A stretch of DNA of 64,000 nt from Candidatus Magasanikiibacteriota bacterium (GTDB lineage Bacteria > Patescibacteriota > Patescibacteriia > Magasanikbacterales > GWA2-37-8). Below the pieces are notes generated by a model. The model did not search any database. It saw only the letters and a program-made list of their open reading frames with translations, and was not told the DNA's origin. Shown piece by piece: positions 1,695 through 63,817 of this stretch. Every line of letters starts with the position of its first letter. Positions within the stretch are counted from its first letter, which is position 1. The position numbers and the translations under genes were made by a program. Location: contig JAHFHX010000004.1 in NCBI GenBank assembly GCA_023246655.1, positions 2,762-66,761 of the forward strand, read 5' to 3'.

Positions 1695-2033
1695 ATGCCG
1701 TATCGTGATCTTGAGGGTGAACCTTCTGAGCTAGCACGAAAAAGTCCTGCTATTCTGGAATTAGAACAACATATCGCGGAGCTGGGTACAATTGGCATTC
1801 AAATACCGGAAAATGTTTGGGTTGGTTTTATTATTAACTTTCCTCCTGGTTCTGATAGCAACCCCATACAGTTGCGGGATGTTCGACTTTACTGCGAACA
1901 ATATGGTATTCTTGAACCCTCTACAGCCTATAATGCCACCTTAATTATGTGGTATAGTAATAAACTAAAAAAATGGGTGCTTAAAACAACCAACAAAGGA
2001 AAGGTCTTAGAGGTCAAGAATGAAGGAATTTAA
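1695..2033 (+). CDS. hypothetical protein
   Basis: A 112-aa ORF lies tightly coupled 3 nt after the nfo stop and is followed directly by a terminator hairpin. Confidence 0.4.
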   Translation: MPYRDLEGEPSELARKSPAILELEQHIAELGTIGIQIPENVWVGFIINFPPGSDSNPIQLRDVRLYCEQYGILEPSTAYNATLIMWYSNKLKKWVLKTTNKGKVLEVKNEGI

Positions 2034-2066
2034 AAACCATCCCGACTGAGTCGGGATGGTTTTTCG
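2034..2066 (+). terminator. Rho-independent terminator hairpin CCATCCCGACTGAGTCGGGATGG followed by a T-run
   Basis: A perfect 9-bp stem is followed by TTTTTCGTTT. The same hairpin recurs at about 21003 and 34582. Confidence 0.7.
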
Positions 2067-2131
2067 TTTCGGCATCCAAATTAGTATCTTAGAATTTTTG
2101 GTAGTTGGCGACGCTCGTGAAAAGCCTCGCC

Positions 2132-21002: not shown

Positions 21003-21038
21003 AAAAAACCATCCCGACTGAGTCCGGATGGTTTTTTG
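21003..21038. terminator. bidirectional terminator CCATCCCGACTGAGTCCGGATGG between convergent genes
   Basis: The same hairpin family as at 2034 and 34582, flanked by A-run and T-run. Confidence 0.65.
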
Positions 21039-21058
21039 TTATAAATAATTACGCTTTG

Positions 21059-23753: not shown

Positions 23754-25055
23754 TTAATATCGATAATGCCCTGGTTTAAATGGTCCGTTTGCTGAGACCC
23801 CAAGGTAATCTGCCTGTTTCTTGGTTAGTTTTGTAAGCTTAACACCAAGTTTGGGGAGATGTAATCGTGCCACCTCTTCGTCTAATTCTTTTGGCAAGGT
23901 GTAGACTTTGCCACTCTCATATTTTTTACCTTCTTGCCACAACGAAAGTTGCGCAAGCACTTGGTTGGTGAATGATGTACTCATTACAAAACTGGGGTGG
24001 CCGTGGGCGTTGCCGAGGTTGACGAGGCGGCCACGGGAGAGAAGCACTAAACATTTTCCCGAATCCCACACGAATTTGTCGACCTGCGGTTGGATGTTTT
24101 CTTCTCTAATATTTTTTTGACTGGTGAGCCAAGCCACGTCGATTTCGGAATCAAAGTGGCCGATGTTGCAGACGATGGCGCCATCTTTCATTTTTGTCAT
24201 GTGTTCGCCCGTGATAACGTCGCAGCAGCCGGTGGCGGTTACAAAGATGTCGCCGATGGGGGCTGCTTCGTCCATGGTGACGACTTCGTAGCCTTCCATG
24301 GCGGCTTGGAGGGCGTTGATAGGGTCAATTTCAGTGACGAGAACACGGGCGCCAAACCCGTCCATGCTTTGCGCACAACCTTTGCCAACGTCACCAAAGC
24401 CAGCCACCACCACTACTTTGCCGGCGATCATAATATCGGTGGCCCGTTTAATACCGTCGGCGAGACTTTCACGGCAGCCATATTTGTTGTCGAATTTGGA
24501 TTTGGTCACCGAATCGTTGACATTAATTGCGACCGTGCCAAGCGTGCTACGCTCCATCATTTGGTACAGACGATGAACGCCGGTCGTTGTCTCTTCGGAA
24601 ACACCTTTAAGTTCTTTAAGCATTTCTGGGTGTTTTTCGTGAACAACAATAGTAAGGTCGCCACCATCATCGAGGAGAAGGTTGGGACCTCGTCCATTGG
24701 AAAATTTTAGACTTTCTTCCACACACCACCAGTATTCCTCTTCTGTCTCACCTTTCCACGCAAATACGGGGATGCCAGCAGCAGCGATCGCGGCGGCGGC
24801 GTGATCTTGCGTGGAGAAAATATTACAGCTACTCCACCGCACCTCGGCACCGAGTTCCACAAGGGTTTCGATGAGGACAGCGGTTTGGATAGTCATATGG
24901 AGGCACCCGGCGATGCGGGCGTCTTTGAGTGGTTTTTTGCCTTTAAATTTTTTACGTAATGCCATAAGACCTGGCATTTCTTTTTCTGCCAGAATAATTT
25001 CCTTGCGGCCCCAAGCAGCAAGAGAGATGTCTTTAACTTTGTAATCATTTTTCAT
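23754..25055 (-). CDS. ahcY: adenosylhomocysteinase
   Basis: The protein is 433 aa with an NAD-binding [10 protein letters not shown] motif and an N-terminus [13 protein letters not shown] typical of SAHH. Confidence 0.9.
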
Positions 25056-25184: not shown

Positions 25185-26207
25185 TTAGAGATTAATTATT
25201 TCACCATATGTTTTTTGGTACCGTACGCAAAACGCTTCTTTTGTAAACGCATGTTCCTGTGTTCCATACGTCTCAATAGCATAACTCGCCGCGACGGAAC
25301 CGATTTGGGCGCAGGTTTTGAGAGGGAGGTTGTTTTCAAAACCCACCAGAAAGCCTGCGCGGAAAGCGTCGCCGGCGCCGGTGGGGTCGTCCACGGATTG
25401 GGGTGGGCAGGGGGCGACGTTGATTTCCTCGCCGTCTTGCGTAGTAATGATGGAACCTTTTTCACCAAGGGTCGTGATGAGAATGTTGGTTTCTTTTAAA
25501 ATATCCGCAGCGCTCCAACTGGTACGGTCTTGGAGGAGTTTCATTTCGTAGTCATTGCCAATAACAAAATGGCTTTTGCTTATCATACTCCGGAGTTCGA
25601 TGTCGGTGAAAGCAGTTATTTGTTGACCCGGGTCGAACATGGCCGGGATGCCGCGTTCATGGCATTCATGGAGATGCTTCATCATGACGGTTTTGTCGGT
25701 GGGGGAGATGATGGCGAGGTTTACTTTTTTGTCATCCCGAGTGAGGTTCGCACCGACGAGGGATCCCTGTCCGTCGATTGGTGATTGAGCCAGAGATTCC
25801 TCCTTCGTCGTCGGAATGACAGTTGGGAGGTGAGGCGTTTCTTCGAGCGGCCCATTGTAAAAGGCGGTTACCTGGTTGTCATCCATGTCGGTGGTGATGT
25901 AGGCGGAGGCGGAGAGTTTGGTTTTGTCTTGATAGATGTGGTCAGTTGCGATGTCGAATCTTTTAAAGTGATCGAGGTAGTCTTTCGCGTCTTTTCCAAC
26001 AGCAGAAACAATCATGGGGTTAGCGCCCAACATTTTTATCGTAAAGGCAATGTTGCCGGCGGTGCCGCCCCAACTGCGTTCTAATTTATCCACCACAAAA
26101 CAGACGTTAAGAATATGAATCTGTTCTGGCATGATGTGATTCTTAAAGCTGTCCGGAAAATTCATGATGTAATCGTAGGCGAGGGAGCCGGAGATGAGGA
26201 TGGACAT
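25185..26207 (-). CDS. PfkB-family carbohydrate/nucleoside kinase carrying an in-frame family-A repeat insertion
   Basis: The PfkB signature DPTGAGDAFRAGFL is present. The extra segment TVIPTTKEESLAQSPIDGQGSLVGANLTRDDKK is encoded by the repeat. Confidence 0.75.
   Translation of the reverse strand: MSILISGSLAYDYIMNFPDSFKNHIMPEQIHILNVCFVVDKLERSWGGTAGNIAFTIKMLGANPMIVSAVGKDAKDYLDHFKRFDIATDHIYQDKTKLSASAYITTDMDDNQVTAFYNGPLEETPHLPTVIPTTKEESLAQSPIDGQGSLVGANLTRDDKKVNLAIISPTDKTVMMKHLHECHERGIPAMFDPGQQITAFTDIELRSMISKSHFVIGNDYEMKLLQDRTSWSAADILKETNILITTLGEKGSIITTQDGEEINVAPCPPQSVDDPTGAGDAFRAGFLVGFENNLPLKTCAQIGSVAASYAIETYGTQEHAFTKEAFCVRYQKTYGEIINL
25731..25822. repeat. family-A nested-palindrome element (GTCATCCCGAG...GGAATGACAG)
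   Basis: It shares both termini and the inner GGGATCCCTGTC / GCCAGAGATTCC inverted repeat with the copies at 37842, 43470/43810, 54131 and 54502. Confidence 0.85.
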
Positions 26208-34563: not shown

Positions 34564-34581
34564 AAACGATTTTTAAAATAA

Positions 34582-34612
34582 AACATCCCGACTGAGTCGG
34601 GATGTTTTTATT
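34582..34612 (+). terminator. terminator hairpin ACATCCCGACTGAGTCGGGATGT followed by a T-run
   Basis: Third copy of the CATCCCGACTGAGTCGGGATG hairpin. Confidence 0.7.
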
Positions 34613-34839
34613 CTAGAAGATGCAAGTATTTTGTATGCTCTAGATGCAGGGTTTCATTGCGAGGAAACCCGACTCTTGGCCGGCGATAGTGTTATCGCCT
34701 GTTTCTTTTCAGCCGTCGTTTGGCCTGGCGACGGATATATTCCCGCGTGGCGGGACTATGGGAGGTGCCGAGATTCTCGGGAAGTACGGGCGGAATGGGT
34801 ACCGCCGTCGATTCCGAGCTCTCAGACTCGCGGTGGCGC

Positions 34840-37841: not shown

Positions 37842-37990
37842 ATACCGTTTTGTCATCCCGAGCAAGCCTTCCGCCAAAGGCGGACACAGCGCGAGGCCTG
37901 CCCGCCTCTGGCGGGAGGGATCTCTCTGTCCGTCGTTGGTTGATTGAGACAGAGATTCCTCACCCCTGCGACGGGGATTCGGAATGACAA
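37842..37990. repeat. family-A element, long intergenic variant (149 bp)
   Basis: It starts GTCATCCCGAGC, contains GGGATCTCTCTGTCCGTC...GAGACAGAGATTCCTC...CGACGGGGATTCGGAATGACAAG, and has an extra internal hairpin. Confidence 0.85.
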
Positions 37991-42240: not shown

Positions 42241-42609
42241 CTATTTCAATTTAATGAGCGCCGATTTTTTAGCACCATATTTATATTTCATCCATTTGGC
42301 GCTTTCCTCAAGCATCCACTCACCATATTTATTATCCGGGACTAACTGAAAATCAACCGACCATTTTTCGTTTTTTTTAGTTGGTTTAGTTTTGAGGAAT
42401 ATCACAACGTCAATATCTTGCGGTCGTATTTTTGCGGTGGTAAAACTACCGAGCATGTGTACCGAAGCAATGGGGAGAATTTTTTCTAGTTTTTTCATTA
42501 CCCGCTCAAAGTGTTTCCACATTTCTTTACGATATTTTGAGTTTAACAATTCTTTAGGAATGGTTGGCTTCATAATTTTAATTATTTTATTCATTCCCCT
42601 CCCCAACAA
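42241..42609 (-). CDS. minimal nucleotidyltransferase (Pol-beta superfamily)
   Basis: The GS...D.D signature is present (LGSFTTAKIRPQDIDVVIFL). Confidence 0.55.
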   Translation of the reverse strand: MLGRGMNKIIKIMKPTIPKELLNSKYRKEMWKHFERVMKKLEKILPIASVHMLGSFTTAKIRPQDIDVVIFLKTKPTKKNEKWSVDFQLVPDNKYGEWMLEESAKWMKYKYGAKKSALIKLK

Positions 42610-42646
42610 GGGGAGGGGCGCAGGGTGGGGTTATCGGGGAATTAAT

Positions 42647-43453
42647 TTACTCCAACGACAACAACCCCCGCTCCAATCGTTTTTTAAAATTCATTTTGAG
42701 AAATAATGTTGCGAAGACGAGATAGACAAAACTAATACTAACGCTCGTTGCTAGTTTCGTCCAGTCGAGTTGTCCAGTTTGGATGACGCCACGCATACCT
42801 TCAAATATGTAGGAAGTGGGGAGGAGGCGGGAGATGGCTTGTGCCCAATGGGGAAGAATTGAGACCGGGTAATAAATTGCGGAGAATGGCGCGAGGATGA
42901 CGCCGAGGGTCCAGGCAAAGGCTTGGAAGCTGGTGCCGTAGCGCAGAATGAGTCCGGCCACAAAAAAGCCAAGCCACCAGCCACACAGGAGGAGCGATAG
43001 GAGAAACGGAATGAGGTAGAATCCGTAGACAAAAATTTTTACCTGGTAGAGGAGAAAGGCAAAAGAGCTGGCGACAGCGGCCGTGATAGTTATTTTAATG
43101 AGGCCAAGGCACAGAAACCCGGCGATCCATTCGGAGAATCTAAGGGGCGAGCAGAAAAAGTTGAGCAGGCTTTTGTTCCAGAGCTCCTCGAGAGTGTCCA
43201 TAGGAATTTCCATTTGGACGCGGTAGAGAATTTCCCAAAAGATAATGCCGGTGACGGTAGCAAGCACAAATACCGGCGAGCCAAACACAGCGTGTGATTG
43301 TGCTGGGGCGATGGAGGTAAAAAACGTGCTGGTCATGCCCCAGAGCATGAGGTTAACCAGCGGAAATACAAACACCTCAGCCCAACGGTCCAGGTTTTTG
43401 CGCAGAAGATAGAGGAAGCGGAGGATGATAGCGTAGATTCTGGTAGGGTTCAT
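42647..43453 (-). CDS. ABC-2 type transporter permease
   Basis: A 268-aa protein with six TM helices, lying downstream of the ABC ATPase gene. Confidence 0.65.
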   Translation of the reverse strand: MNPTRIYAIILRFLYLLRKNLDRWAEVFVFPLVNLMLWGMTSTFFTSIAPAQSHAVFGSPVFVLATVTGIIFWEILYRVQMEIPMDTLEELWNKSLLNFFCSPLRFSEWIAGFLCLGLIKITITAAVASSFAFLLYQVKIFVYGFYLIPFLLSLLLCGWWLGFFVAGLILRYGTSFQAFAWTLGVILAPFSAIYYPVSILPHWAQAISRLLPTSYIFEGMRGVIQTGQLDWTKLATSVSISFVYLVFATLFLKMNFKKRLERGLLSLE

Positions 43454-43456
43454 ATT

Positions 43457-43804
43457 TTATTTTAGATTTGTCATCCCGAGCGAGCCTCGCGGCGACGAGG
43501 GATCCCTGTCCGTTATGTCCCAATACAAATCTTTCCATTTTGGGTTCATACTTTGAATTAATTTAATTTTTTTCTCTCGTCGCCAGGCTTTTATTTCTTT
43601 CTCACGATAGATGGCCTGTTTAATACCATTGTAATGTTCATAATAAACAGGTTTTTTGGTTTTATATTTTTTACTGAAACCACCACCTACCTCATCTTTG
43701 TGTTGTTCGACGCGTTCAATTAAATCATTGGTTACACCAACGTAGATCACATAACTAATACTCGCCATAATGTACGTGTAGAAATTGTAGTGTAATCGCG
43801 GCAT
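43457..43804 (-). CDS. GIY-YIG nuclease-domain protein (115 aa) nested in a family-A repeat
   Basis: The N-terminus YVIYVGVTNDLIERVEQH...YYEHY is the GIY-YIG fold. The last 15 codons (DRDPSSPRGSLGMTN) are encoded by the left arm of the repeat. Confidence 0.8.
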   Translation of the reverse strand: MPRLHYNFYTYIMASISYVIYVGVTNDLIERVEQHKDEVGGGFSKKYKTKKPVYYEHYNGIKQAIYREKEIKAWRREKKIKLIQSMNPKWKDLYWDITDRDPSSPRGSLGMTNLK

Positions 43805-43919
43805 AGCGGTTGATTGGACAGAGATTCCTCAGTCGCGCGAGTTTCTTCGGAATGACAGTTGGGTGGTCTTGATTGAGACAGAGATCCCTCACCCCTGCGA
43901 CGGGGATTCGGGATGACAA
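43457..43919 (-). mobile_element. candidate mobile cassette: family-A left arm, GIY-YIG gene, and two tandem family-A right arms
   Basis: The left arm GTCATCCCGAGCGAGCCTCGCGGCGACGAGGGATCCCTGTCCGTT lies at 43470-43514. Two right arms (TTGATTGGACAGAGATTCCTC...GGAATGACAG at 43810-43858 and TTGATTGAGACAGAGATCCCTC...GGGATGACAA at 43869-43919) flank the gene. The cassette sits between the ABC ATPase and permease genes. Confidence 0.6.
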
Positions 43920-44831
43920 TTACGGTTTAGTTTGTACTGTCTGCAAGAAATAATCTTCCAAACTCGGTTTCGCAATGCTAATTTCGGAATAGGCGATTCC
44001 AGTTTCGGCGAGGGATTGGAGAAATTGGGCAATAGATTTTTCGGAAACATCAACGGTGATGTATTTGCCGTCAGCGTGATGCGGGAGGTTACTTTGAGCG
44101 CAGTAGGAAAGTAGGCCGGTAGGATTGTAGGCGAGTAGGGTGATGTGGGCCACTTCGATTGAGCGCGCGAGGTTTTGGGGTGTGTCGTCGGCGATGAGCT
44201 TGCCGTGGTTGATGAAGATGACGCGATCGCAGATTTCTTCTACCTCACTCATATTATGGGAAGTGATAATGATGGAAACATTAAATTCTTGGCGTTGGGT
44301 TTCTAGAAATTCGCGGATATATTGAGCAACATCGGGGTCGAGTGAGGCGGTGGGTTCGTCGAGCAGTAAGACACGGGGGAAATTAAGCATGGCCTTGGCC
44401 AGGCCGACGCGGGTTTTTTGCCCGGCCGAGAGACGACCGAATTTTACGTTTAGTAATTCGGTGAGATTAAAAATATCGATAATTTTTTCCAAGCGTTTTT
44501 TGCGATCGGAAATTTTGTAGAGATAAGAAATGAACGTGAGATTTTCTTTGACCGTGAGAAGCTCCGGGAGACCAACGTAAGTGGAAGAAAAATTTACCTG
44601 CTCGAGAATTTCTTCGCGAGAGTTAAAAAAATTTTTACCAAAATAATTAATTTCACCACTGGTCGGTGTCAGCACTCCTAAAAGCATTTGGAGTGTTGTC
44701 GTCTTTCCGGCTCCGTTGGGTCCAAGCAAACCTAAAATTTCTCCTTCATTTAAACAGAAGGAGATGTTGTCGACGGCAACAAATCGGGCGGGAAATTTTT
44801 TTGTTAGGTTGGAGATGGAGAGGATAGGCAT
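43920..44831 (-). CDS. ABC transporter ATP-binding protein
   Basis: Walker A (GPNGAGKTT), the LSGGQK ABC signature, and Walker B (LLLDEP) are present. The start is set at MPILSISNLTKKF. Confidence 0.85.
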   Translation of the reverse strand: MPILSISNLTKKFPARFVAVDNISFCLNEGEILGLLGPNGAGKTTTLQMLLGVLTPTSGEINYFGKNFFNSREEILEQVNFSSTYVGLPELLTVKENLTFISYLYKISDRKKRLEKIIDIFNLTELLNVKFGRLSAGQKTRVGLAKAMLNFPRVLLLDEPTASLDPDVAQYIREFLETQRQEFNVSIIITSHNMSEVEEICDRVIFINHGKLIADDTPQNLARSIEVAHITLLAYNPTGLLSYCAQSNLPHHADGKYITVDVSEKSIAQFLQSLAETGIAYSEISIAKPSLEDYFLQTVQTKP

Positions 44832-47227: not shown

Positions 47228-47400
47228 GAGTTAGGATGGTAGGACAAGAGTCGTATTCCCCGCTTGAGCGGGGTGGTCGCCTCAAGGCGACCGAGGTGTG
47301 TGAGGCCGGTGAGCGGGCGATTCGTCAATGGATGCGATTTTATTGCCCCCGGCGGCTCACACCCCCCTACCCCCCCCCTCACAGGGGGGAGTTGAATATC
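47228..47400. repeat. family-B GC-rich hairpin cluster (CCCCGCTTGAGCGGGG, GCTCACACCCCCC, CCCCCCTCACAGGGGGG)
   Basis: The same motifs recur at 48517-48550, 48947-48990 and 59764-59815. Confidence 0.8.
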
Positions 47401-48512: not shown

Positions 48513-48926
48513 TTAATCCCCCCTCGAGGGGGGTAGTGGGGGTGTGAGCCCTTTGCGTGGCTCAATCCAATCGACAATTCGTTGGGTTACATTGTCAATA
48601 TCGCGACGCACCTCGTGTTCTTGAAATCGTAATACAATAAATCCTTGTTGTTCTAATTGTTGCTGTCGTTTTTTATCATATTCCATTTGAGCATCATGGC
48701 CAAAGCCATCGAGTTCAATTATAAGTTTTAATTCACGACAGTACAAGTCAACAATATAATTCAGTATTGTTGTTTGACGAATGAACTTGTAACCAAGTAA
48801 TTGGCGGCCTTTTAGTTTTTTCCACAATAATACTTCGCCGAGCGTAGAATTTTTACGTAAGTCTCGAGCTCGATTTTTAAGATTTGTTTTATATAAAGAG
48901 AACGTTCGGTTTGTTTTGATAACCAT
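48513..48926 (-). CDS. DUF559 (Vsr-like very-short-patch-repair endonuclease fold) protein
   Basis: The C-terminal sequence GFIVLRFQEHEV and the motifs LLGYKFIRQ and VDLYC match DUF559. Confidence 0.7.
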   Translation of the reverse strand: MVIKTNRTFSLYKTNLKNRARDLRKNSTLGEVLLWKKLKGRQLLGYKFIRQTTILNYIVDLYCRELKLIIELDGFGHDAQMEYDKKRQQQLEQQGFIVLRFQEHEVRRDIDNVTQRIVDWIEPRKGLTPPLPPSRGD

Positions 48927-48990
48927 ATTAGTGACGACTCTCGGAAGCTCACACCCCCCGTGAACCCCCCTCAAGGGGGGATTTGAGCTC
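48517..48990. mobile_element. DUF559 gene bracketed by roughly 35-bp inverted family-B repeats
   Basis: The left repeat is TCCCCCCTCGAGGGGGGTAGTGGGGGTGTGAGCC (48517-48550). The right repeat, GCTCACACCCCCCGTGAACCCCCCTCAAGGGGGGATTTGAGCTC (48947-48990), is its inverted counterpart. Confidence 0.55.
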
Positions 48991-53807: not shown

Positions 53808-55139
53808 ATGATGGAAAATGTCCTAAAAATTCTCATCCTCCACGACTATTTTCTCTACAAAGGCGGCGGGGAGCGGTTGGTGATTAGTCTTGCCAAAAAT
53901 TTGGGGGCGGATGTGGCGACGGCGTTTATTGCCAAGGATGCTTTTGATCCGCGTGAGCACGGGATTAGGACGATTGAATTATATAAAGAGAAGGCGTGGT
54001 CGCGTGTGCCCGGGTTTCGATATTTGCAGGTGCAGTCGTCGTTTTTGTTTAAGACGGGGTTTGTAAAGAATTATGATGTAGTGATTTATAGTGGCGATTG
54101 TTTGACGGCAGCACTTCGAACTGGCGTATTGTCATCCCGAGCGAGGCTCGCGCCGACGAGGGATCTCTGTCCGTCGGTGAGTGAGCCAGAGATTCTTCGC
54201 TCTGCTCAGAATGACAGTAAAAAATCAGAAAGACGGCCAGTGAACATCGCTTACATGCACACGCCGCCTCGGCATTTGTATGATTTGTATGACGAGAGAT
54301 TGCGCTCATATCCCTGGTGGAAGAAAATTATTTTTGTGCCGTTTGTCTTGTTTAACCGGTGGAGATTTTTAGCCTTGGCACGAATGATGGATAGGATTGT
54401 GACGAATTCGAAAAATACTCAAGCGCGGATAAAAAAGTATCTGGGACTCGATTCGATAGTAGTGTATCCGCCGTGTGACACTCTTCCGTTCAAAAATCTC
54501 CGTCATTCCGAGCGAGGCCTCGCGGCCGACGAGGAATCTCTGTCCGTTTCGTCAACGAGTGAGACAGAGATTCCTCCTGCGGTCGGGATGACAAGTGTTG
54601 GCGATTATTTTTTCTCCTGGGCGCGATTGTATGATGTGAAACGGGTTCACCTCATCGCGGAGGCATTTGCCAAGATGCCAGACAAAAAAGTAGTCATTGC
54701 ATCGCAGGGCCCAGAGTTTGAGCGGATAAAAAAAATTGTTGAGGGGCACAGCAATATTACGCTTCTAGGTTGGATTGATGACCAACAATTGCTGGAGTAT
54801 TTGGGCAAATCTTTAGCCACGATTTACATTCCCATGGCTGAGGATTTTGGGATGACGGCGGTGGAATCCATGCAAGCGGGGAAGCCGGTGATTGGGGTGG
54901 CGGAGGGAGGACTTTTAGAAATCATTGAAGATAATAAAAATGGGTTGATGTTGAAACCGGATTTTACGGTTGACGATTTACGATTGAAGATTTTAGAAAT
55001 GACACCAGAGCGGGTGCGGGTGATGGAAGCAGCGTGTTATGAAACGGCGAAGAAGTTTAGTGAAGCGGCATTTGTGGAGGGGATGAGGGAGGTGATTGAG
55101 AAATACCAAATACCAAATACCAAATACCAAAGCTGTTGA
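53808..55139 (+). CDS. GT4-family glycosyltransferase with two in-frame family-A repeat insertions
   Basis: The C-terminal GT4 EX7E region (GMTAVESMQAGKPVIGVAEGGLLEII) is present. The inserted segments read VLSSRARLAPTRDLCPSVSEPEILRSAQNDS and RHSERGLAADEESLSVSSTSETEIPPAVGMTS. Confidence 0.75.
   Translation: MMENVLKILILHDYFLYKGGGERLVISLAKNLGADVATAFIAKDAFDPREHGIRTIELYKEKAWSRVPGFRYLQVQSSFLFKTGFVKNYDVVIYSGDCLTAALRTGVLSSRARLAPTRDLCPSVSEPEILRSAQNDSKKSERRPVNIAYMHTPPRHLYDLYDERLRSYPWWKKIIFVPFVLFNRWRFLALARMMDRIVTNSKNTQARIKKYLGLDSIVVYPPCDTLPFKNLRHSERGLAADEESLSVSSTSETEIPPAVGMTSVGDYFFSWARLYDVKRVHLIAEAFAKMPDKKVVIASQGPEFERIKKIVEGHSNITLLGWIDDQQLLEYLGKSLATIYIPMAEDFGMTAVESMQAGKPVIGVAEGGLLEIIEDNKNGLMLKPDFTVDDLRLKILEMTPERVRVMEAACYETAKKFSEAAFVEGMREVIEKYQIPNTKYQSC
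54131..54217. repeat. family-A element (87 bp) translated in-frame within the glycosyltransferase gene
   Basis: GTCATCCCGAGCGAGGCTCGCGCCGACGAGGGATCTCTGTCCGTC...GCCAGAGATTCTTCGCTCTGCTCAGAATGACAG. Confidence 0.85.
54502..54594. repeat. family-A element (93 bp) translated in-frame within the same gene, in a different frame relative to the repeat
   Basis: GTCATTCCGAGCGAGGCCTCGCGGCCGACGAGGAATCTCTGTCCGTT...GAGACAGAGATTCCTCCTGCGGTCGGGATGACAAG. Confidence 0.85.
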
Positions 55140-57022: not shown

Positions 57023-57832
57023 TTACCGTGAGGTCAAATAGTAATTCTGTTCTTTTTTAGAAAATTTTTCAATGGCATATCGTAGCATGGTGCGGGGCAT
57101 TGTTTGATGATGGTGGTTAAGGAATTTTTTTAGCGTCGGCGGCGATTTTTTTCCCACTTCGCGTAGCATCCAGCCGCAGGCTTTCTGAATCAGATCGTGT
57201 TTGTCAGTGAGGAGGAGTTTGGAAATTTTGAGCGTTTCGTCAAAATGATTCGCGCGGATGAAAGCAAAGGTAGCAACGATGGCAATGCGACGTTCCCAGA
57301 GGTTGGTGGAGCGGGCGAGGGTGACGAGGACAGCCAACCGCGGCCGAACCCCCCTCTCTATCTCCCCCCTATAAGGGGGGAGAGGGCCATCAATGCCCTC
57401 CCCTACAAGGGGAGGGACGGAGGGCGGGGTTTTCGTCTCGCGCATTTGGTTGAGTAAGTACTCGCCGACAATCTGCGGGGCGGAGGTGTCGACTAAATCC
57501 CAATTGTTAATTCGTTTGGTGTTTTTGAGGTAGAAGTTGTAAATTTTTTTCTTCTGTTTATTATCCCCGATTTGAAATTGACGTACCAGGATGATAAGGC
57601 CAGTGAAACGCTCCTCATGAACTTTTGATTTGAGTAGTTTTTGTATGTCGGCGAGTGAAAGATCGTAAAATTTTTTGGCGATGGTTCGTTGCTTCGGTAC
57701 GGTGAGCCCAAGAAATAGGTCGCCATGGCCGTATTCACCCGGTGCGGTTTTAAAAAAGCCAGCATAGATTTTGGCTTTGGTGGGGTTGGCATGGGAGCGA
57801 AGAATTTTTTTGAGTTCGGTGAGATAATACAT
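57023..57832 (-). CDS. AlkD-like HEAT-repeat DNA alkylation repair glycosylase carrying a family-B insertion
   Basis: The sequence MYYLTELKKILRSHANPTKAKIYAGFFKT...NNWDLVD matches AlkD. The segment RETKTPPSVPPLVGEGIDGPLPPYRGEIERGVRPRL is encoded by tandem GC hairpins. Confidence 0.7.
   Translation of the reverse strand: MYYLTELKKILRSHANPTKAKIYAGFFKTAPGEYGHGDLFLGLTVPKQRTIAKKFYDLSLADIQKLLKSKVHEERFTGLIILVRQFQIGDNKQKKKIYNFYLKNTKRINNWDLVDTSAPQIVGEYLLNQMRETKTPPSVPPLVGEGIDGPLPPYRGEIERGVRPRLAVLVTLARSTNLWERRIAIVATFAFIRANHFDETLKISKLLLTDKHDLIQKACGWMLREVGKKSPPTLKKFLNHHHQTMPRTMLRYAIEKFSKKEQNYYLTSR
57345..57435. repeat. family-B tandem GC hairpins (CCCCCCTCTCTATCTCCCCCCTATAAGGGGGGAGAGGG...CCCTCCCCTACAAGGGGAGGG)
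   Basis: A GC island inside an AT-rich gene. Confidence 0.8.
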
Positions 57833-61939: not shown

Positions 61940-63817
61940 TTATTTTACTTTTCGTTCGCGTTTGGGGATTTTGAGGGAGATTTTGGTTTGGAGATTGTGA
62001 TTATTACAGTAAGTGATGATGGCGGAAACGAAAGGTTGGCCGTATTTTGATGTTTTTAAATCACCGAAGCCGGAGATTTTGCGGATGTCGGTGAGGGTCA
62101 TTGGTAGATACGTCGCGAGTTCGAGAATGGTGGCGTCGGAAAAAATTAAATACGGGGGAACATTTTCGGCGCGGGCGAGATTCGTACGGATGAGTTTGAG
62201 GTTGGTGAATAATTCTGGTTCGTGGGGGATGTGTTCTCCCTCCCCCCGATGGCCCCCCTCGGGCAGGGGGGCAGACGAAGCTCGTACAGCCGTTTTTATC
62301 AACATCACGGTTTCTTTCCCTTGTAGCACTGGGACACTTTTTTCCGTGAGCTTCAAAACTGGATACTCAACGCCACCGACACGGAGGCAGCCGAGACCCA
62401 CGAGGTCTTTGAGATAGCGGAGCCAGAGTTCTTTGGGAATATCGGCGCCGGCGCCGTAGGTTTTGAGGGCGCGATGCTCTTCTTTCATTTTCTCTGATTT
62501 GGAACCGCGGAGAAAATCGGCAACATAGTGGAGGCCGTATTGACCTTCGAGGCGTGCGACGGCGGAGAGGGCTTTTTGGGCAATGAGGGTGCCATCGAAG
62601 CGTTCCACTTCGGTGAGACAACTATCGCAGCTGGCGCAGGCGTTGGGAGCGGTTTCGCCAAAATAATTTAAGAGTAGTTTTCTCCGGCACTCACGACTTT
62701 CGCCGTAGGCCATCATTTGGTTGAGTTTTTTGAGGAGGACGGTGTTTTGTTCTGGATTATTTTCAATTTGTATAAATTTTTTTAATTTCATCACGTCTCC
62801 GGCGCCGTAGAAAAGCAGAGCGTCGCTTTTGAGCCCATCGCGTCCAGCCCGCCCGGTTTCTTGGTAGTAGCTTTCAATATTTTTGGGAAGGTCGACGTGA
62901 ATTACGAATCGTACGTTGGATTTGTTGATGCCCATGCCGAAAGCGATCGTGGCCACAATTATTTTTATTTCGTCTTTAATAAAGAGCTCTTGGTTGGCGC
63001 GCCGTGTTTCGGGGCTCAGACCCGCGTGGTACGGGCGGACGGAGAAACCTTGGAGATCAAGATTGTTAGCCAGATTCTCGGCCGAGGCACGCGAGAGTGT
63101 GTAGATGATACCGGAATCGTCCTTGTGATTGTCTAGATAGTTTGCTAGGCGCGCAGTGAGGTTGCGTTTGGGTTCTACAAAATAGTGAATGTTAGGGCGG
63201 TTGAAGCTAGCGACAAAAATTTCCGGATTTTTGAGGTGCAATTTTTCAATAATATCACGCCGTGTTATGTCGTCCGCTGTGGCAGTGAGGGCAATGGTGG
63301 GGGCGGTTGGAAAAAAATTTTTGAGTTCAGAAAGCAGGCGATACTCAGGACGGAAATCGTGACCCCAGTGCGAGATGCAGTGCGCTTCATCAATTGCAAA
63401 AAGTGAGATGTTGAGGGTTTGTAAAAAATCTAAAAATTCTCCGTTTGCCCCAAGGAGGCGTTCCGGCGCGACGTAAAGAAGTTTCAGTTCGTTGTTGCGG
63501 AGTTGGTCAAACACCCGTCTGCGTTCGTCGGTGGAGAGCGTGGAATTTAAAAACGCCGCTGGGATACCCATAAGGCGTAAGGCGTCTACCTGGTCTTTCA
63601 TGAGGGCGATGAGAGGCGAGATAACCACGGTAAGGCCAGGGAAGATAAGCGCCGGGAGCTGGTAACAGAGGGATTTACCGCCGCCGGTTGGCATCACGGC
63701 CACAACGTCTTTTTGATTGAGAACAGTATTGACAATGGTTTCTTGATCGTGACGGAAGGAATCGTAGCCGAATTTGGTTTGGAGCAATTGGAGAACTGGA
63801 GACATAGTGTTTGTCAT
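61940..63817 (-). CDS. recQ: ATP-dependent DNA helicase RecQ carrying a family-B insertion
   Basis: Helicase motifs I (MPTGGGKS) and II (DEAH), the RQC zinc Cys cluster, and the HRDC domain are present. The extra segment SSAPLPEGGHRGEGEHIPHE is encoded by a GC hairpin. Confidence 0.85.
   Translation of the reverse strand: MTNTMSPVLQLLQTKFGYDSFRHDQETIVNTVLNQKDVVAVMPTGGGKSLCYQLPALIFPGLTVVISPLIALMKDQVDALRLMGIPAAFLNSTLSTDERRRVFDQLRNNELKLLYVAPERLLGANGEFLDFLQTLNISLFAIDEAHCISHWGHDFRPEYRLLSELKNFFPTAPTIALTATADDITRRDIIEKLHLKNPEIFVASFNRPNIHYFVEPKRNLTARLANYLDNHKDDSGIIYTLSRASAENLANNLDLQGFSVRPYHAGLSPETRRANQELFIKDEIKIIVATIAFGMGINKSNVRFVIHVDLPKNIESYYQETGRAGRDGLKSDALLFYGAGDVMKLKKFIQIENNPEQNTVLLKKLNQMMAYGESRECRRKLLLNYFGETAPNACASCDSCLTEVERFDGTLIAQKALSAVARLEGQYGLHYVADFLRGSKSEKMKEEHRALKTYGAGADIPKELWLRYLKDLVGLGCLRVGGVEYPVLKLTEKSVPVLQGKETVMLIKTAVRASSAPLPEGGHRGEGEHIPHEPELFTNLKLIRTNLARAENVPPYLIFSDATILELATYLPMTLTDIRKISGFGDLKTSKYGQPFVSAIITYCNNHNLQTKISLKIPKRERKVK
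62237..62277. repeat. family-B GC hairpin inside recQ
   Basis: CTCCCTCCCCCCGATGGCCCCCCTCGGGCAGGGGGG. Confidence 0.8.

What the first reader, a model, noticed from the sequence alone, without database searches (positions are those of the whole stretch)
25185..26207. PfkB kinase interrupted in-frame by a family-A element
The PfkB kinase shows the same phenomenon as the glycosyltransferase. It retains its PfkB signature DPTGAGDAFRAGFL, with the repeat copy at 25731-25822 lying mid-gene.
Basis: seen in the sequence. Interest (0 to 1): 0.55.

Follow-up and report, generated by a model that had tools for sequence, protein, structure and literature searches.

The report
Selfish hairpin repeat inside kinase gene
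An apparently intact adenosine-kinase-type gene of a tiny-genome (CPR/Magasanikbacteria) bacterium carries, in frame, a 90-base palindromic repeat made of two hairpins of the kind recognised by Ssn single-strand DNA nucleases, a CPR counterpart of the "selfish DNA in protein-coding genes" known from Rickettsia.

Summary
ORF 25185-26207 (-) is a 340-aa PfkB-family kinase closest to M. tuberculosis adenosine kinase, and its catalytic motifs are intact. Codons 130-159 (window 25731-25820, exactly 90 nt, no stop) are a copy of a repeat that occurs five times in the window. Most orthologues lack it: 68 of 72 aligned homologues, including four whose DNA I read, and so does the solved Mtb enzyme. Three close orthologues carry an insert in the same 16-aa loop.

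AlphaFold gives a confident kinase core and a low-confidence insert just before a core beta-strand.

The repeat is an inverted pair of hairpins (GTCATYCC...GGRATC) that resemble the NTS/SRM motifs of Ssn GIY-YIG ssDNA nucleases (Chenal 2025). One window copy encloses such a nuclease gene.

The same element sits in frame in LeuRS, IleRS-like, KsgA, RsmH, ThiI and UvrA genes in metagenomes.

Best reading: a translated, tolerated selfish insertion, similar in behaviour to a Rickettsia RPE. This is a new variant of known kinds. How it inserts is not resolved: there is no target duplication. Whether the shared site reflects one old insertion or repeated insertions is also open.

The parts
25185..26207 (-). 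PfkB-family (adenosine/nucleoside kinase-like) coding sequence, 340 aa, intact
   Evidence: ORF list. Pfam PF00294 at 129 bits. Mtb adenosine kinase E=2e-62. AF2 model mean pLDDT 83. Foldseek TM 0.84 to 6c9r. An identical protein, P0001, is called as a gene in public data.
25731..25820 (.). Inserted palindromic element (GTCAT...ATGAC), 90 nt, equal to codons 130-159 of the kinase
   Evidence: Repeat family D1/D2/D5. Pattern matches. Comparison with empty orthologous sites gives exactly +90 nt between two codons.
25731..25765 (+). Hairpin 1: NTS/SRM-like unit GTCATCCC-(loop hairpin)-GGGATC, read on the + strand
   Evidence: Half-site scan. The ATYCC/GGRAT stem covaries within the half in 34 of 34 family copies.
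25766..25794 (.). Central stem-loop (CYCTG ... CAGRG) between the two hairpins. This is the position where the nuclease gene sits in the long copy at 43470-43917.
   Evidence: Consensus structure. DNA folds. Anatomy of 43468-43919.
25795..25820 (-). Hairpin 2: NTS/SRM-like unit GTCATTCC-GACGACGAAGGA-GGAATC, read on the - strand (the coding strand of the kinase)
   Evidence: The right-half stem pairs in 33 of 34 copies.
23754..25055 (-). S-adenosylhomocysteine hydrolase gene immediately downstream. This is conserved synteny that supports an adenosine-kinase role.
   Evidence: ORF. An AdoHcyase gene lies directly after or near the PfkB gene in L001, L002 and L206; in L207 only a short 36-aa AdoHcyase fragment is called nearby.
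43470..43917 (.). Long copy of the element: left hairpin 43470-43504 (+), GIY-YIG gene, right hairpins 43823-43856 (-) and 43883-43917 (-)
   Evidence: Sequence. Half-site scan.
43457..43804 (-). Single-domain GIY-YIG nuclease gene (115 aa ORF; a 103-aa form is in public data), Ssn-like. Its C-terminal tail reads into the left hairpin.
   Evidence: Pfam PF01541 at 39.5 bits. Homologues in many phyla are flanked by the same 10-mer.
37852..37988 (.). Intergenic copy of the element (137 nt, with a longer left hairpin)
54131..54215 (.). Copy in frame inside the glycosyltransferase ORF (first of two)
54502..54592 (.). Copy in frame inside the glycosyltransferase ORF (second of two)

Best explanation
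The kinase gene has been colonised by a short non-autonomous palindromic repeat. The repeat is an inverted pair of hairpin motifs of the NTS/SRM type, the motifs that flank, and in Neisseria are bound and cut as single-stranded DNA by, small GIY-YIG 'Ssn' nucleases. A longer copy that encloses such a nuclease gene lies 18 kb away in the same window. The 90-nt copy sits exactly between two codons of a short surface loop, just before a core beta-strand. It has no stop codon in the kinase frame, so it is transcribed and translated as about 30 extra hydrophilic residues. The enzyme tolerates these residues: they are neutral or slightly deleterious passenger sequence, not a functional module. Shown here: the insert is real, in frame and lineage-restricted; the catalytic motifs are kept; the element is a two-hairpin unit; it is associated with the nuclease gene; and in-frame copies recur in many housekeeping genes. 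Inferred: that the insert is translated; that the loop is far from the active site (argued from fold topology); and that the Ssn-like nuclease is what spreads or maintains the repeats.
For: The ORF is intact and is a PfkB kinase. In the alignment to Mtb adenosine kinase the residues D12, G47-G48, N52, Q195-Q196, N218/E221, T246 and D280 are identical, and the extra sequence is confined to aa 128-160. These residues are invariant or nearly invariant in 72 homologues.

The insert is absent in 68 of 72 homologues. The empty sites read CCA AAT|AAG and similar, against ACT|90 nt|AAA in the window.

In the AF2 model pLDDT is 85 and 92 on either side of the insert and 51-61 within aa 131-160. The insert directly precedes strand E162-167. 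The fold matches nucleoside and adenosine kinases with TM 0.81-0.84.

Occupied orthologues from three independent assemblies all keep the frame, with inserts of 90, 93 and 81 nt. Host third codon positions are only 47-59% identical, so the gene has stayed under purifying selection for a long time.

Element anatomy: the variable Y/R stem position pairs Watson-Crick within each half in 34/34 and 33/34 copies, but across halves in only 12-13/34.

Nuclease link: the 10-mer GTCATYCYGA occurs 187 times in 713 kb of fetched loci (80 of the 84 were fetched as flanks of GIY-YIG homologue genes), against about 5 expected. It lies upstream of 31, downstream of 41, and on both sides of 26 of 83 homologue genes from many phyla.

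Published biochemistry: Ssn nucleases are flanked by NTS/SRM hairpins (consensus CGTCATTCCCGCGMAVGCGGGAATCYRG) and cut them only as ssDNA (PMC11893778).

Generality: of 113 metagenomic copies, 17 lie in frame in long ORFs. Eight of these ORFs match Pfam families when the UvrA call in L117, made from the sequence and not put through Pfam, is counted: LeuRS with 3 copies, KsgA with 3, an IleRS-like synthetase, a class II aaRS, RsmH, ThiI, UvrA and AllH. RsmH shows a clean 27-aa insertion relative to a solved structure.
Against: No RNA or protein data show that the insert is translated. The model coordinates could not be inspected, so 'away from the active site' rests on fold topology, not on measured distances. 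The element is better conserved at DNA level than the host's synonymous sites: 90% identity between the window and L003, against 53% at third positions. A purely neutral passenger would not be expected to behave this way. This points to DNA-level constraint, homogenisation between copies, or recent re-insertion. No target-site duplication is seen and the junction phase is heterogeneous, so the insertion mechanism is unknown. Nm SsnA cuts about 3 nt upstream of its motif, not at the boundary seen here. The published degenerate SRM search string finds nothing in the window.
Confidence: 0.8

Rival explanations
1. The insert is an exapted, functional loop. Under this reading it is kept by selection at the protein level in this Magasanikbacteria clade, for example as a regulatory or interaction surface, and is no longer passenger DNA.
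For: Inserts are retained in the same loop in four related genomes with the frame kept. The first 10 residues, VIPTTKEESL, are identical between the window and P0004, and the single nucleotide change there is synonymous.
Against: The peptide is dictated by the repeat's DNA consensus. The same VIP..EESL...RDD peptides occur in unrelated proteins. The three SRM-type orthologous inserts differ in length (30, 31 and 27 aa) and in whole arms, and P0002 has an unrelated sequence there. The sister orthologues P0005 and P0006 do without it. AF2 confidence in the insert is low.
Confidence: 0.07
2. The element is kept in essential genes, or repeatedly targeted to them, because of what the DNA hairpins do with the Ssn nuclease. 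One possibility is that they mark these loci so that incoming single-stranded DNA is cut, which would limit allelic replacement by transformation as NTS does in Neisseria. Another is that the element homes site-specifically into the same T|A position.
For: DNA-level conservation exceeds that of the host's synonymous sites. The same codon boundary is occupied in lineages that an NJ tree separates from empty sister orthologues. The arms are mosaic: the window shares its left arm with L003, and L001 shares its right arm with L003, as expected from templated repair between copies. In Neisseria, SsnA with NTS modulates transformation (PMC11893778).
Against: No functional data exist for CPR. About half of the family copies are intergenic or lie at gene ends. 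The NJ tree has no support values, and one ancestral insertion followed by loss also fits. No common target sequence beyond T|A is seen.
Confidence: 0.1
3. The gene is a decaying pseudogene, or the insert is an assembly artefact.
For: Repeats are classic sites of misassembly, and many GIY-YIG homologues sit on very short contigs.
Against: The ORF is complete and every catalytic motif is kept. The insert is found at the same codon in three independent assemblies from different sources: the window, NCBI GCA_964533715.1 and JGI 3300045398. Lengths are multiples of three. Synteny with ahcY is conserved.
Confidence: 0.03

Closest known systems
Rickettsia palindromic elements (RPEs; Ogata et al. 2000, as summarised in the MITE review PMC10969869)
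   Same: Both are short palindromic repeats inserted in frame into many unrelated, conserved housekeeping genes. Both add a peptide segment that the host protein tolerates. Both occur in bacteria with reduced genomes.
   Different: The host is a different phylum (CPR/Patescibacteria). The element here is about 75-135 nt and is built from two NTS/SRM-like hairpins, with a GIY-YIG nuclease gene in the long form. Sequence relatedness to RPE families was not tested. That Rickettsia is among the SRM-rich genomes is stated in PMC11893778, but an RPE-SRM identity is only a lead.
Ssn nucleases with NTS/SRM hairpin repeats (Chenal et al. 2025, Nat Commun, PMC11893778)
   Same: Each hairpin has the NTS framework: 5' GTCATTCC, then a hairpin, then GGAATC plus a 3' tail. 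The stem is maintained by compensatory change. The motif flanks a single-domain GIY-YIG gene of about 100 aa on both sides. The same 10-mer brackets homologues across many phyla.
   Different: The hairpins here have a much longer loop (8-55 nt, itself a hairpin) and do not match the published degenerate SRM search string (0 hits). They occur as fixed inverted dimers with a central stem-loop. NTS is reported inside genes in only 2% of cases in N. meningitidis, whereas 3 of 5 copies in this window, and about 9-15% of metagenomic copies, are in frame inside genes. CPR is not mentioned in that paper.
REP/BIME repeats with RAYT (IS200/IS605-like Y1) transposases
   Same: Both have hairpin repeats dispersed in many copies, a cognate small nuclease gene bracketed by the repeats, and no target-site duplication. 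Single-strand hairpin recognition is proposed for both.
   Different: The enzyme superfamily differs: GIY-YIG here, HUH/Y1 there. REPs are by definition extragenic. Transposition by Ssn has not been shown.
Bacterial MITEs found intragenically (ERIC, Coxiella QMITE1, Anabaena MITEs, Correia elements; PMC10969869, PMC5896051)
   Same: Both are small, multicopy, have terminal inverted repeats, and occasionally form in-frame fusions with host ORFs.
   Different: No TSD is found, and no DDE transposase partner is present. The halves behave as two independent hairpins and not as one long TIR duplex.

Membership tests
PfkB / ribokinase-like nucleoside (adenosine) kinase | Significant match to the PfkB family profile | tested here: met
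   PF00294 at 129.2 bits against a cut-off of 25.8, covering aa 39-318
PfkB / ribokinase-like nucleoside (adenosine) kinase | Catalytic and substrate motifs: GG dipeptide, NxxE, and DPTGAGD with the catalytic Asp | tested here: met
   G47-G48, N218..E221 and D274-D280 are identical to Mtb AdoK in the alignment and invariant in 72 homologues
PfkB / ribokinase-like nucleoside (adenosine) kinase | Ribokinase fold | tested here: met
   AF2 mean pLDDT 83 and pTM 0.84. Foldseek TM 0.81-0.84 to BthNK and Mtb AdoK, E about 1e-34.
PfkB / ribokinase-like nucleoside (adenosine) kinase | Adenosine phosphorylation activity | not testable with these tools
   Support is indirect only: the best PDB relatives are adenosine and nucleoside kinases; NCBIfam equivalog cut-offs are not reached; the gene is syntenic with ahcY
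Ssn-related motif (NTS/SRM) hairpin repeat | NTS framework: GTCATTCC, hairpin, GGAATC, with orientation-giving flanks | tested here: met
   10 half-sites of the form GTCATYCC-N(8-55)-GGRATC in the window, two of them in the PfkB insert. NTS consensus taken from PMC11893778.
Ssn-related motif (NTS/SRM) hairpin repeat | Match to the published degenerate SRM search string HGTCWYN(0-2)YYVSBRHN(0-5)WNVSBRGN(0-2)RNCYNB | tested here: not met
   0 matches on either strand of the window; shuffles give 0.34. The loops here are longer than that string allows.
Ssn-related motif (NTS/SRM) hairpin repeat | Hairpin stem maintained by compensatory change | tested here: met
   The ATYCC/GGRAT stem shows 11 and 12 double changes in 34 copies. 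Watson-Crick pairing within a half is 34/34 and 33/34, against 12-13/34 across halves.
Ssn-related motif (NTS/SRM) hairpin repeat | Flanks a small single-domain GIY-YIG (ssn) gene on both sides | tested here: met
   Window 43470-43917. The terminal 10-mer lies on both sides of 26 of 83 homologue genes and on at least one side of many more.
Ssn-related motif (NTS/SRM) hairpin repeat | Bound and cut as ssDNA by the cognate Ssn | not testable with these tools
   This needs biochemistry
Ssn nuclease family (CDD cd10448), for ORF 43457-43804 | Single GIY-YIG domain, about 95-115 aa, no extra domain | tested here: met
   PF01541 at 39.5 bits over aa 8-80 of 115. Homologues are 82-158 aa, mostly 94-128 aa.
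Ssn nuclease family (CDD cd10448), for ORF 43457-43804 | Assignment to cd10448, or homology to N. meningitidis SsnA | not testable with these tools
   No CDD library and no SsnA sequence were available. NCBIfam gave no hit. The spacing of Tyr, Tyr and Glu (Y11, Y21, E68 of the 115-aa ORF) resembles Y6, Y17, E64 of Nm SsnA. This comes from reading the sequence only.
MITE | Terminal inverted repeats, small size, many copies | tested here: met
MITE | Target-site duplication | tested here: not met
   Direct repeats at the junctions occur at chance level in 75 copies. The PfkB empty and occupied sites show a clean +90 nt.
MITE | Derived from an autonomous element that encodes a transposase | tested here: inconclusive
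   The long form carries a GIY-YIG nuclease in the central loop, but no transposase activity is known for this family (PMC11893778 discussion)
Rickettsia palindromic element (RPE) | In-frame insertion into many unrelated conserved genes | tested here: met
   PfkB, GT (twice), LeuRS, KsgA, IleRS-like, class II aaRS, RsmH, ThiI and UvrA
Rickettsia palindromic element (RPE) | Sequence similarity to RPE family consensus sequences | not tested
   No Rickettsia sequence was compared. This is an analogy of behaviour, not membership.
Intron or intein | Ribozyme or intron RNA family match, or intein splice-junction residues | tested here: not met
   Rfam at gathering threshold finds only a tRNA in the window. 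The insert starts with Val, ends with Asp, and is followed by Lys, so it lacks the Cys/Ser/Thr nucleophiles and the His-Asn of inteins.

The most novel reading that the evidence does not exclude
Ssn-type hairpin dimers may be an active ssDNA-based mobile element, with a GIY-YIG nuclease acting as its 'transposase' or homing enzyme. Such an element would repeatedly target the same T|A position in CPR essential genes, or would be maintained there by selection on the DNA hairpins, for example through Ssn-mediated restriction of incoming single-stranded DNA at those loci. Either way, the in-frame inserts would be a functional genome-maintenance feature and not merely tolerated junk.
Probability: 0.15. 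Interest if true: 0.8.

Novelty: new variant of a known kind. Interest (0 to 1): 0.55.

Why it matters
The finding links two things that are described separately in the literature. One is the 25-year-old puzzle of palindromic 'selfish DNA' translated inside essential genes (RPEs). The other is the recently discovered Ssn family of site-specific single-strand DNA nucleases, whose hairpin repeats were reported to be almost always extragenic and whose role outside Neisseria is unknown.

CPR bacteria have minimal genomes, yet they carry these hairpin dimers in frame in aminoacyl-tRNA synthetases, rRNA methyltransferases, UvrA and this kinase. This gives three things: a natural map of insertion-tolerant loops, a set of occupied and empty orthologous sites with which to test whether Ssn elements move and how, and a practical warning for annotation and structure prediction of CPR proteins.

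For this particular gene the practical conclusion is ordinary: it is most likely a working adenosine kinase with a passenger loop.

Tried and rejected
- Rfam search of the whole window at gathering threshold, and of 43400-44000 at E<=10: only a tRNA and sub-threshold noise. No known RNA family, intron or ribozyme matches.
- The published SRM degenerate string: 0 hits. I therefore do not file the hairpins as canonical SRMs, only as NTS/SRM-like.
- NCBIfam for the GIY-YIG protein: no family.
- IMG/VR scan for the element pattern: 0 hits, so there is no sign of phage carriage.
- Target-site duplication search: none.
- Looking for a multiple-of-three design in the element: unit lengths are uniform modulo 3, so frame preservation is a survivorship effect and not a built-in property.
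- Literature searches for GIY-YIG with MITE or palindromic elements, CPR in-frame repeats, the terminal DNA words, and COG2827/UPF0213 found nothing describing this in CPR.
- Several 'intragenic' calls in high-GC contigs (L094, L138, L142, L183, L185, L188) look like spurious long ORFs and were not counted as confirmed.
- The intein, intron, pseudogene and misassembly readings were rejected for the reasons given under rival explanations and the membership tests.
- A long single hairpin (TIR duplex) model of the element was rejected in favour of two independent hairpins.
Full report
**1. The observation**

The minus-strand ORF 25185-26207 is open for 340 codons. It matches Pfam PfkB at 129 bits and contains the motif VDDPTGAGDAFRAGFL.

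The stretch 25729-25823 is a member of a repeat family. It is 88% identical over 56 nt to 54129-54184 and 77% identical to 43468-43523. Other blocks match 37929-37961 and 54166-54198. The terminal 13-mer TTGTCATCCCGAG occurs 8 times with up to 2 mismatches, against 1.4 expected. A three-block pattern of the element hits the PfkB copy and two further copies, against none in 100 shuffles.

Defined by its conserved ends GTCAT...ATGAC, the element is 25731-25820, which is 90 nt and codons 130-159 (VIPTTKEESLAQSPIDGQGSLVGANLTRDD).

**2. The host gene**

The closest solved relatives are M. tuberculosis adenosine kinase (E = 2e-62) and Burkholderia nucleoside kinase. Residues 1-127 and 161-336 align collinearly to Mtb residues 1-127 and 138-313, so the extra sequence is confined to about aa 128-160.

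In that alignment D12, G47-G48, N52, Q195-Q196, the NDYE motif, TTLG and DPTGxGDAFRAGF are all identical. They are invariant or nearly invariant in 72 homologues.

Public names of hits place the organism in Candidatus Magasanikbacteria (CPR/Patescibacteria). An identical 340-aa protein, P0001, is called as a gene in public data.

An S-adenosylhomocysteine hydrolase gene lies immediately downstream (23754-25055). That neighbourhood recurs in L001, L002 and L206, and in L207 only a short 36-aa AdoHcyase fragment is called nearby. This fits an adenosine-salvage kinase. The assignment is inferred, because NCBIfam equivalog cut-offs are not reached.

**3. Is it an insertion?**

Among the 120 best of about 8,000 homologues, almost all are 310-320 aa. 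Only the query's own entry (P0001) and P0002, P0003 and P0004 are longer in this region.

I read the DNA of seven orthologues. The four empty sites read:
- CCA AAT|AAG (L004)
- CCA AGT|ACG (L205)
- CCT AAT|AAA (L206)
- CCA AAT|GAT (L207)

The occupied sites read:
- ACT|GTCAT..90 nt..ATGAC|AAA (window)
- TCT|..93 nt..|AAA (L001, NCBI GCA_964533715.1)
- TCT|..81 nt..|AAA (L003, JGI 3300045398)

So the element sits exactly between two codons of a 16-residue loop. Its length is a multiple of three in each case. It comes from three independent assemblies, which excludes an assembly artefact.

**4. Where in the protein**

An AlphaFold2 model built from 72 homologues has mean pLDDT 83 and pTM 0.84. 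The ten-residue blocks flanking the insert score 85 (121-130) and 92 (161-170). Blocks 131-160 score 61, 58 and 51.

Foldseek places the model on nucleoside and adenosine kinases with TM 0.81-0.84.

The insert ends directly at the N-terminal end of core strand E162-167, which is followed by the SPTDK turn and helix 172-184. In Rossmann-like ribokinase folds the active site lies at the C-terminal ends of the strands, so this loop is on the opposite face. That last step is an inference from topology, because I could not inspect coordinates.

**5. What the element is**

Each half has the form GTCATYCC, then a variable region that is itself a hairpin, then GGRATC. The halves are inverted and are joined by a short stem-loop CYCTG...CAGRG.

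In 34 aligned copies the single variable stem position (ATYCC/GGRAT) pairs Watson-Crick within each half in 34/34 and 33/34 copies. It pairs across halves in only 12-13/34. The unit is therefore two independent hairpins, not one long inverted-repeat duplex.

The copy at 43470-43917 has the same left hairpin and two right hairpins. In place of the central loop it carries a 115-aa single-domain GIY-YIG gene (43457-43804, minus strand; Pfam PF01541), whose C-terminal tail reads into the hairpin.

Homologues of that protein occur in many phyla, and their tails often read into similar motifs. In the 713 kb of loci fetched up to that point, 80 of 84 of which are flanks of homologue genes from genome assemblies, the 10-mer GTCATYCYGA or its complement occurs 187 times, against about 5 expected. 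It lies within 300 nt upstream of 31, within 250 nt downstream of 41, and on both sides of 26 of 83 homologue genes, in the inverted orientation expected of terminal repeats.

**6. Comparison with what is known**

This architecture was published in 2025 (Chenal et al., Nat Commun, PMC11893778). Small GIY-YIG proteins of CDD family cd10448, named Ssn, are flanked by hairpin repeats called NTS or, more generally, SRM. The N. meningitidis NTS is CGTCATTCCCGCGMAVGCGGGAATCYRG. SsnA binds it only as single-stranded DNA, in one orientation, and cuts a few nucleotides upstream.

The authors make three further points. The NTS-ssnA-NTS arrangement looks like an insertion sequence and resembles REP/RAYT. 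NTS is inside genes in only 2% of cases. SRM-rich genomes include Rickettsia and Wolbachia.

The window's hairpins share the GTCATTCC...GGAATC frame, the compensatory stem and the gene association. Their loops are much longer, and the published degenerate SRM string finds nothing in the window. I therefore call them NTS/SRM-like and do not claim strict membership. Assignment of the nuclease to cd10448 could not be tested, and NCBIfam gave no hit.

The behaviour of the short copies, in-frame insertion into conserved genes, is that of Rickettsia palindromic elements and of a few intragenic MITEs (review PMC10969869).

Searches of the held literature found no description of this in CPR, and none of Ssn-type repeats as in-frame inserts.

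**7. Generality**

Of the 113 elements I could delimit, 17 lie in one open frame with at least 60 codons on both sides, 39 overlap an ORF end, and about 50 are intergenic.

Translating the hosts and scanning Pfam shows genuine housekeeping genes:
- leucyl-tRNA synthetase, with three copies
- KsgA/RsmA, with three copies
- an isoleucyl-type synthetase
- a class II synthetase
- RsmH
- ThiI
- AllH

A UvrA-like ORF (L117) is added on the strength of its sequence; it was not put through the Pfam scan.

RsmH shows a clean 27-aa insertion relative to the Thermus structure 1wg8. Six high-GC 'hosts' look like spurious ORFs and are not counted.

In the window itself, 3 of 5 copies are intragenic: the kinase and the glycosyltransferase twice. 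None of the short copies is next to a GIY-YIG gene, as expected for non-autonomous derivatives. No copy was found in IMG/VR viral contigs.

**8. History of this site, not resolved**

A neighbour-joining tree without support values groups the window, P0002, (P0003, P0004) and (P0005, P0006). P0007 and P0008 lie outside this group. P0005-P0008 are empty.

There are two possibilities. Either one ancestral insertion was later lost precisely in the P0005/6 lineage, or the same position was hit more than once.

The arms are mosaic. The window and L003 share an identical left arm, and even the loop word CAATCACCAA. L001 and L003 share the right arm. The window's right arm and L001's left arm are different variants.

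The window and L003 elements are 90% identical (71 of 79 aligned positions), although host third codon positions are only 53% identical. This points to DNA-level constraint, exchange between copies, or recent insertion.

P0002 carries a 90-nt insert in the same loop that belongs to a different family of poly-C/poly-G hairpins. That family also occurs elsewhere in L002 and in the window. The loop is therefore at least a repeatedly permissive site.

**9. Mechanism**

Shown: the element is a pair of hairpins linked to a GIY-YIG nuclease. It is multicopy. It inserts without a detectable target-site duplication. The flanks are T (69/75) and A (71/75), with Y at -2 and R at +2. Its unit length has no bias toward multiples of three (24:23:28).

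In-frame, stop-free copies inside genes are therefore the survivors of selection, not a design feature. One of the three frames at the right end contains TGA (TCG GAA TGA). This explains why the observed peptide endings are ...GMT or ...RDD/RND.

Inferred: spread involves the Ssn-like nuclease acting on hairpins extruded in single-stranded DNA, by analogy with REP/RAYT and IS200/IS605.

Two findings argue against a simple cut-out model. Nm SsnA cuts about 3 nt upstream of its motif, not at the boundary seen here. The junction phase differs among intragenic copies.

**10. Verdict**

For the kinase itself the consequence is probably modest: a working enzyme with a disordered passenger loop.

The interest lies in the class. 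These are Ssn-type hairpin dimers behaving like RPEs in CPR housekeeping genes. I could not find this described, and it offers matched occupied and empty sites for testing whether Ssn elements are mobile. I rate it a new variant of known kinds, with interest 0.55.

Noticed in passing
window 42596-42618, 47370-47389, 48518-48533, 48965-48980, 57364-57416, 62253-62271; L002 4871-5018, 5544-5560, 10401-10454: A second repeat family made of poly-C/poly-G hairpins (for example CCCCTCCCCAACAAGGGGAGGGG). In L002 two such hairpins form a 90-nt in-frame insert in the PfkB orthologue P0002, in the same loop that holds the SRM-like element in the window.
   Followed up: partly
window 2032-2068, 21004-21040, 34578-34614: Three copies of a perfect hairpin AAAAACCATCCCGACTGAGTCGGGATGGTTTTT. 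They look like terminators, but the stem ATCCCGA/TCGGGAT is the same word as the terminus of the family-A element. The relationship is unknown.
   Followed up: no
window 43457-43804 (-): The public protein for the GIY-YIG gene (P0121, 103 aa) starts at an internal Met and lacks the first Tyr motif. The 115-aa ORF (MPRLHYNFYTYIMAS...) restores the family consensus YxYIMAS, so the annotated start is probably too short.
   Followed up: partly
window 43816-43919: The long element has two right-hand hairpins in tandem (43823-43856 and 43883-43917) but only one left-hand hairpin. It may be a nested or partially duplicated end.
   Followed up: no
L193 5069-8824: A CPR leucyl-tRNA synthetase ORF of 1252 aa carries three in-frame hairpin-dimer copies. 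It also has NUDIX and Ser_hydrolase/alpha-beta-hydrolase domain matches embedded between the synthetase domains.
   Followed up: no
L195 9833-11155; L117 4281-8735: KsgA/RsmA carries three in-frame copies in three different reading frames of the element (CHSE.., EIPRFARD.., VIPTTKEESL..). UvrA carries at least two copies.
   Followed up: partly
L100 902-1238; L042 5335-6125; L023 5314-6019: Tandem arrays of the hairpin elements with periods of about 122-260 nt, next to or downstream of GIY-YIG genes. This organisation resembles BIMEs.
   Followed up: no
L002 11205-12964: Between the PfkB and ahcY genes of this relative lie two HTH genes, two further ORFs without Pfam hits and a 55-aa AdoHcyase fragment. 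This suggests an insertion that duplicated the 5' end of ahcY.
   Followed up: no
alignment A2, loop after GPL (aa 122-167 of the window protein): The clade that contains all occupied orthologues, and also P0005-P0008, has a 16-residue loop here. Most Patescibacteria homologues have 20-21 residues, so the helix before strand 6 was already shortened before any insertion.
   Followed up: no
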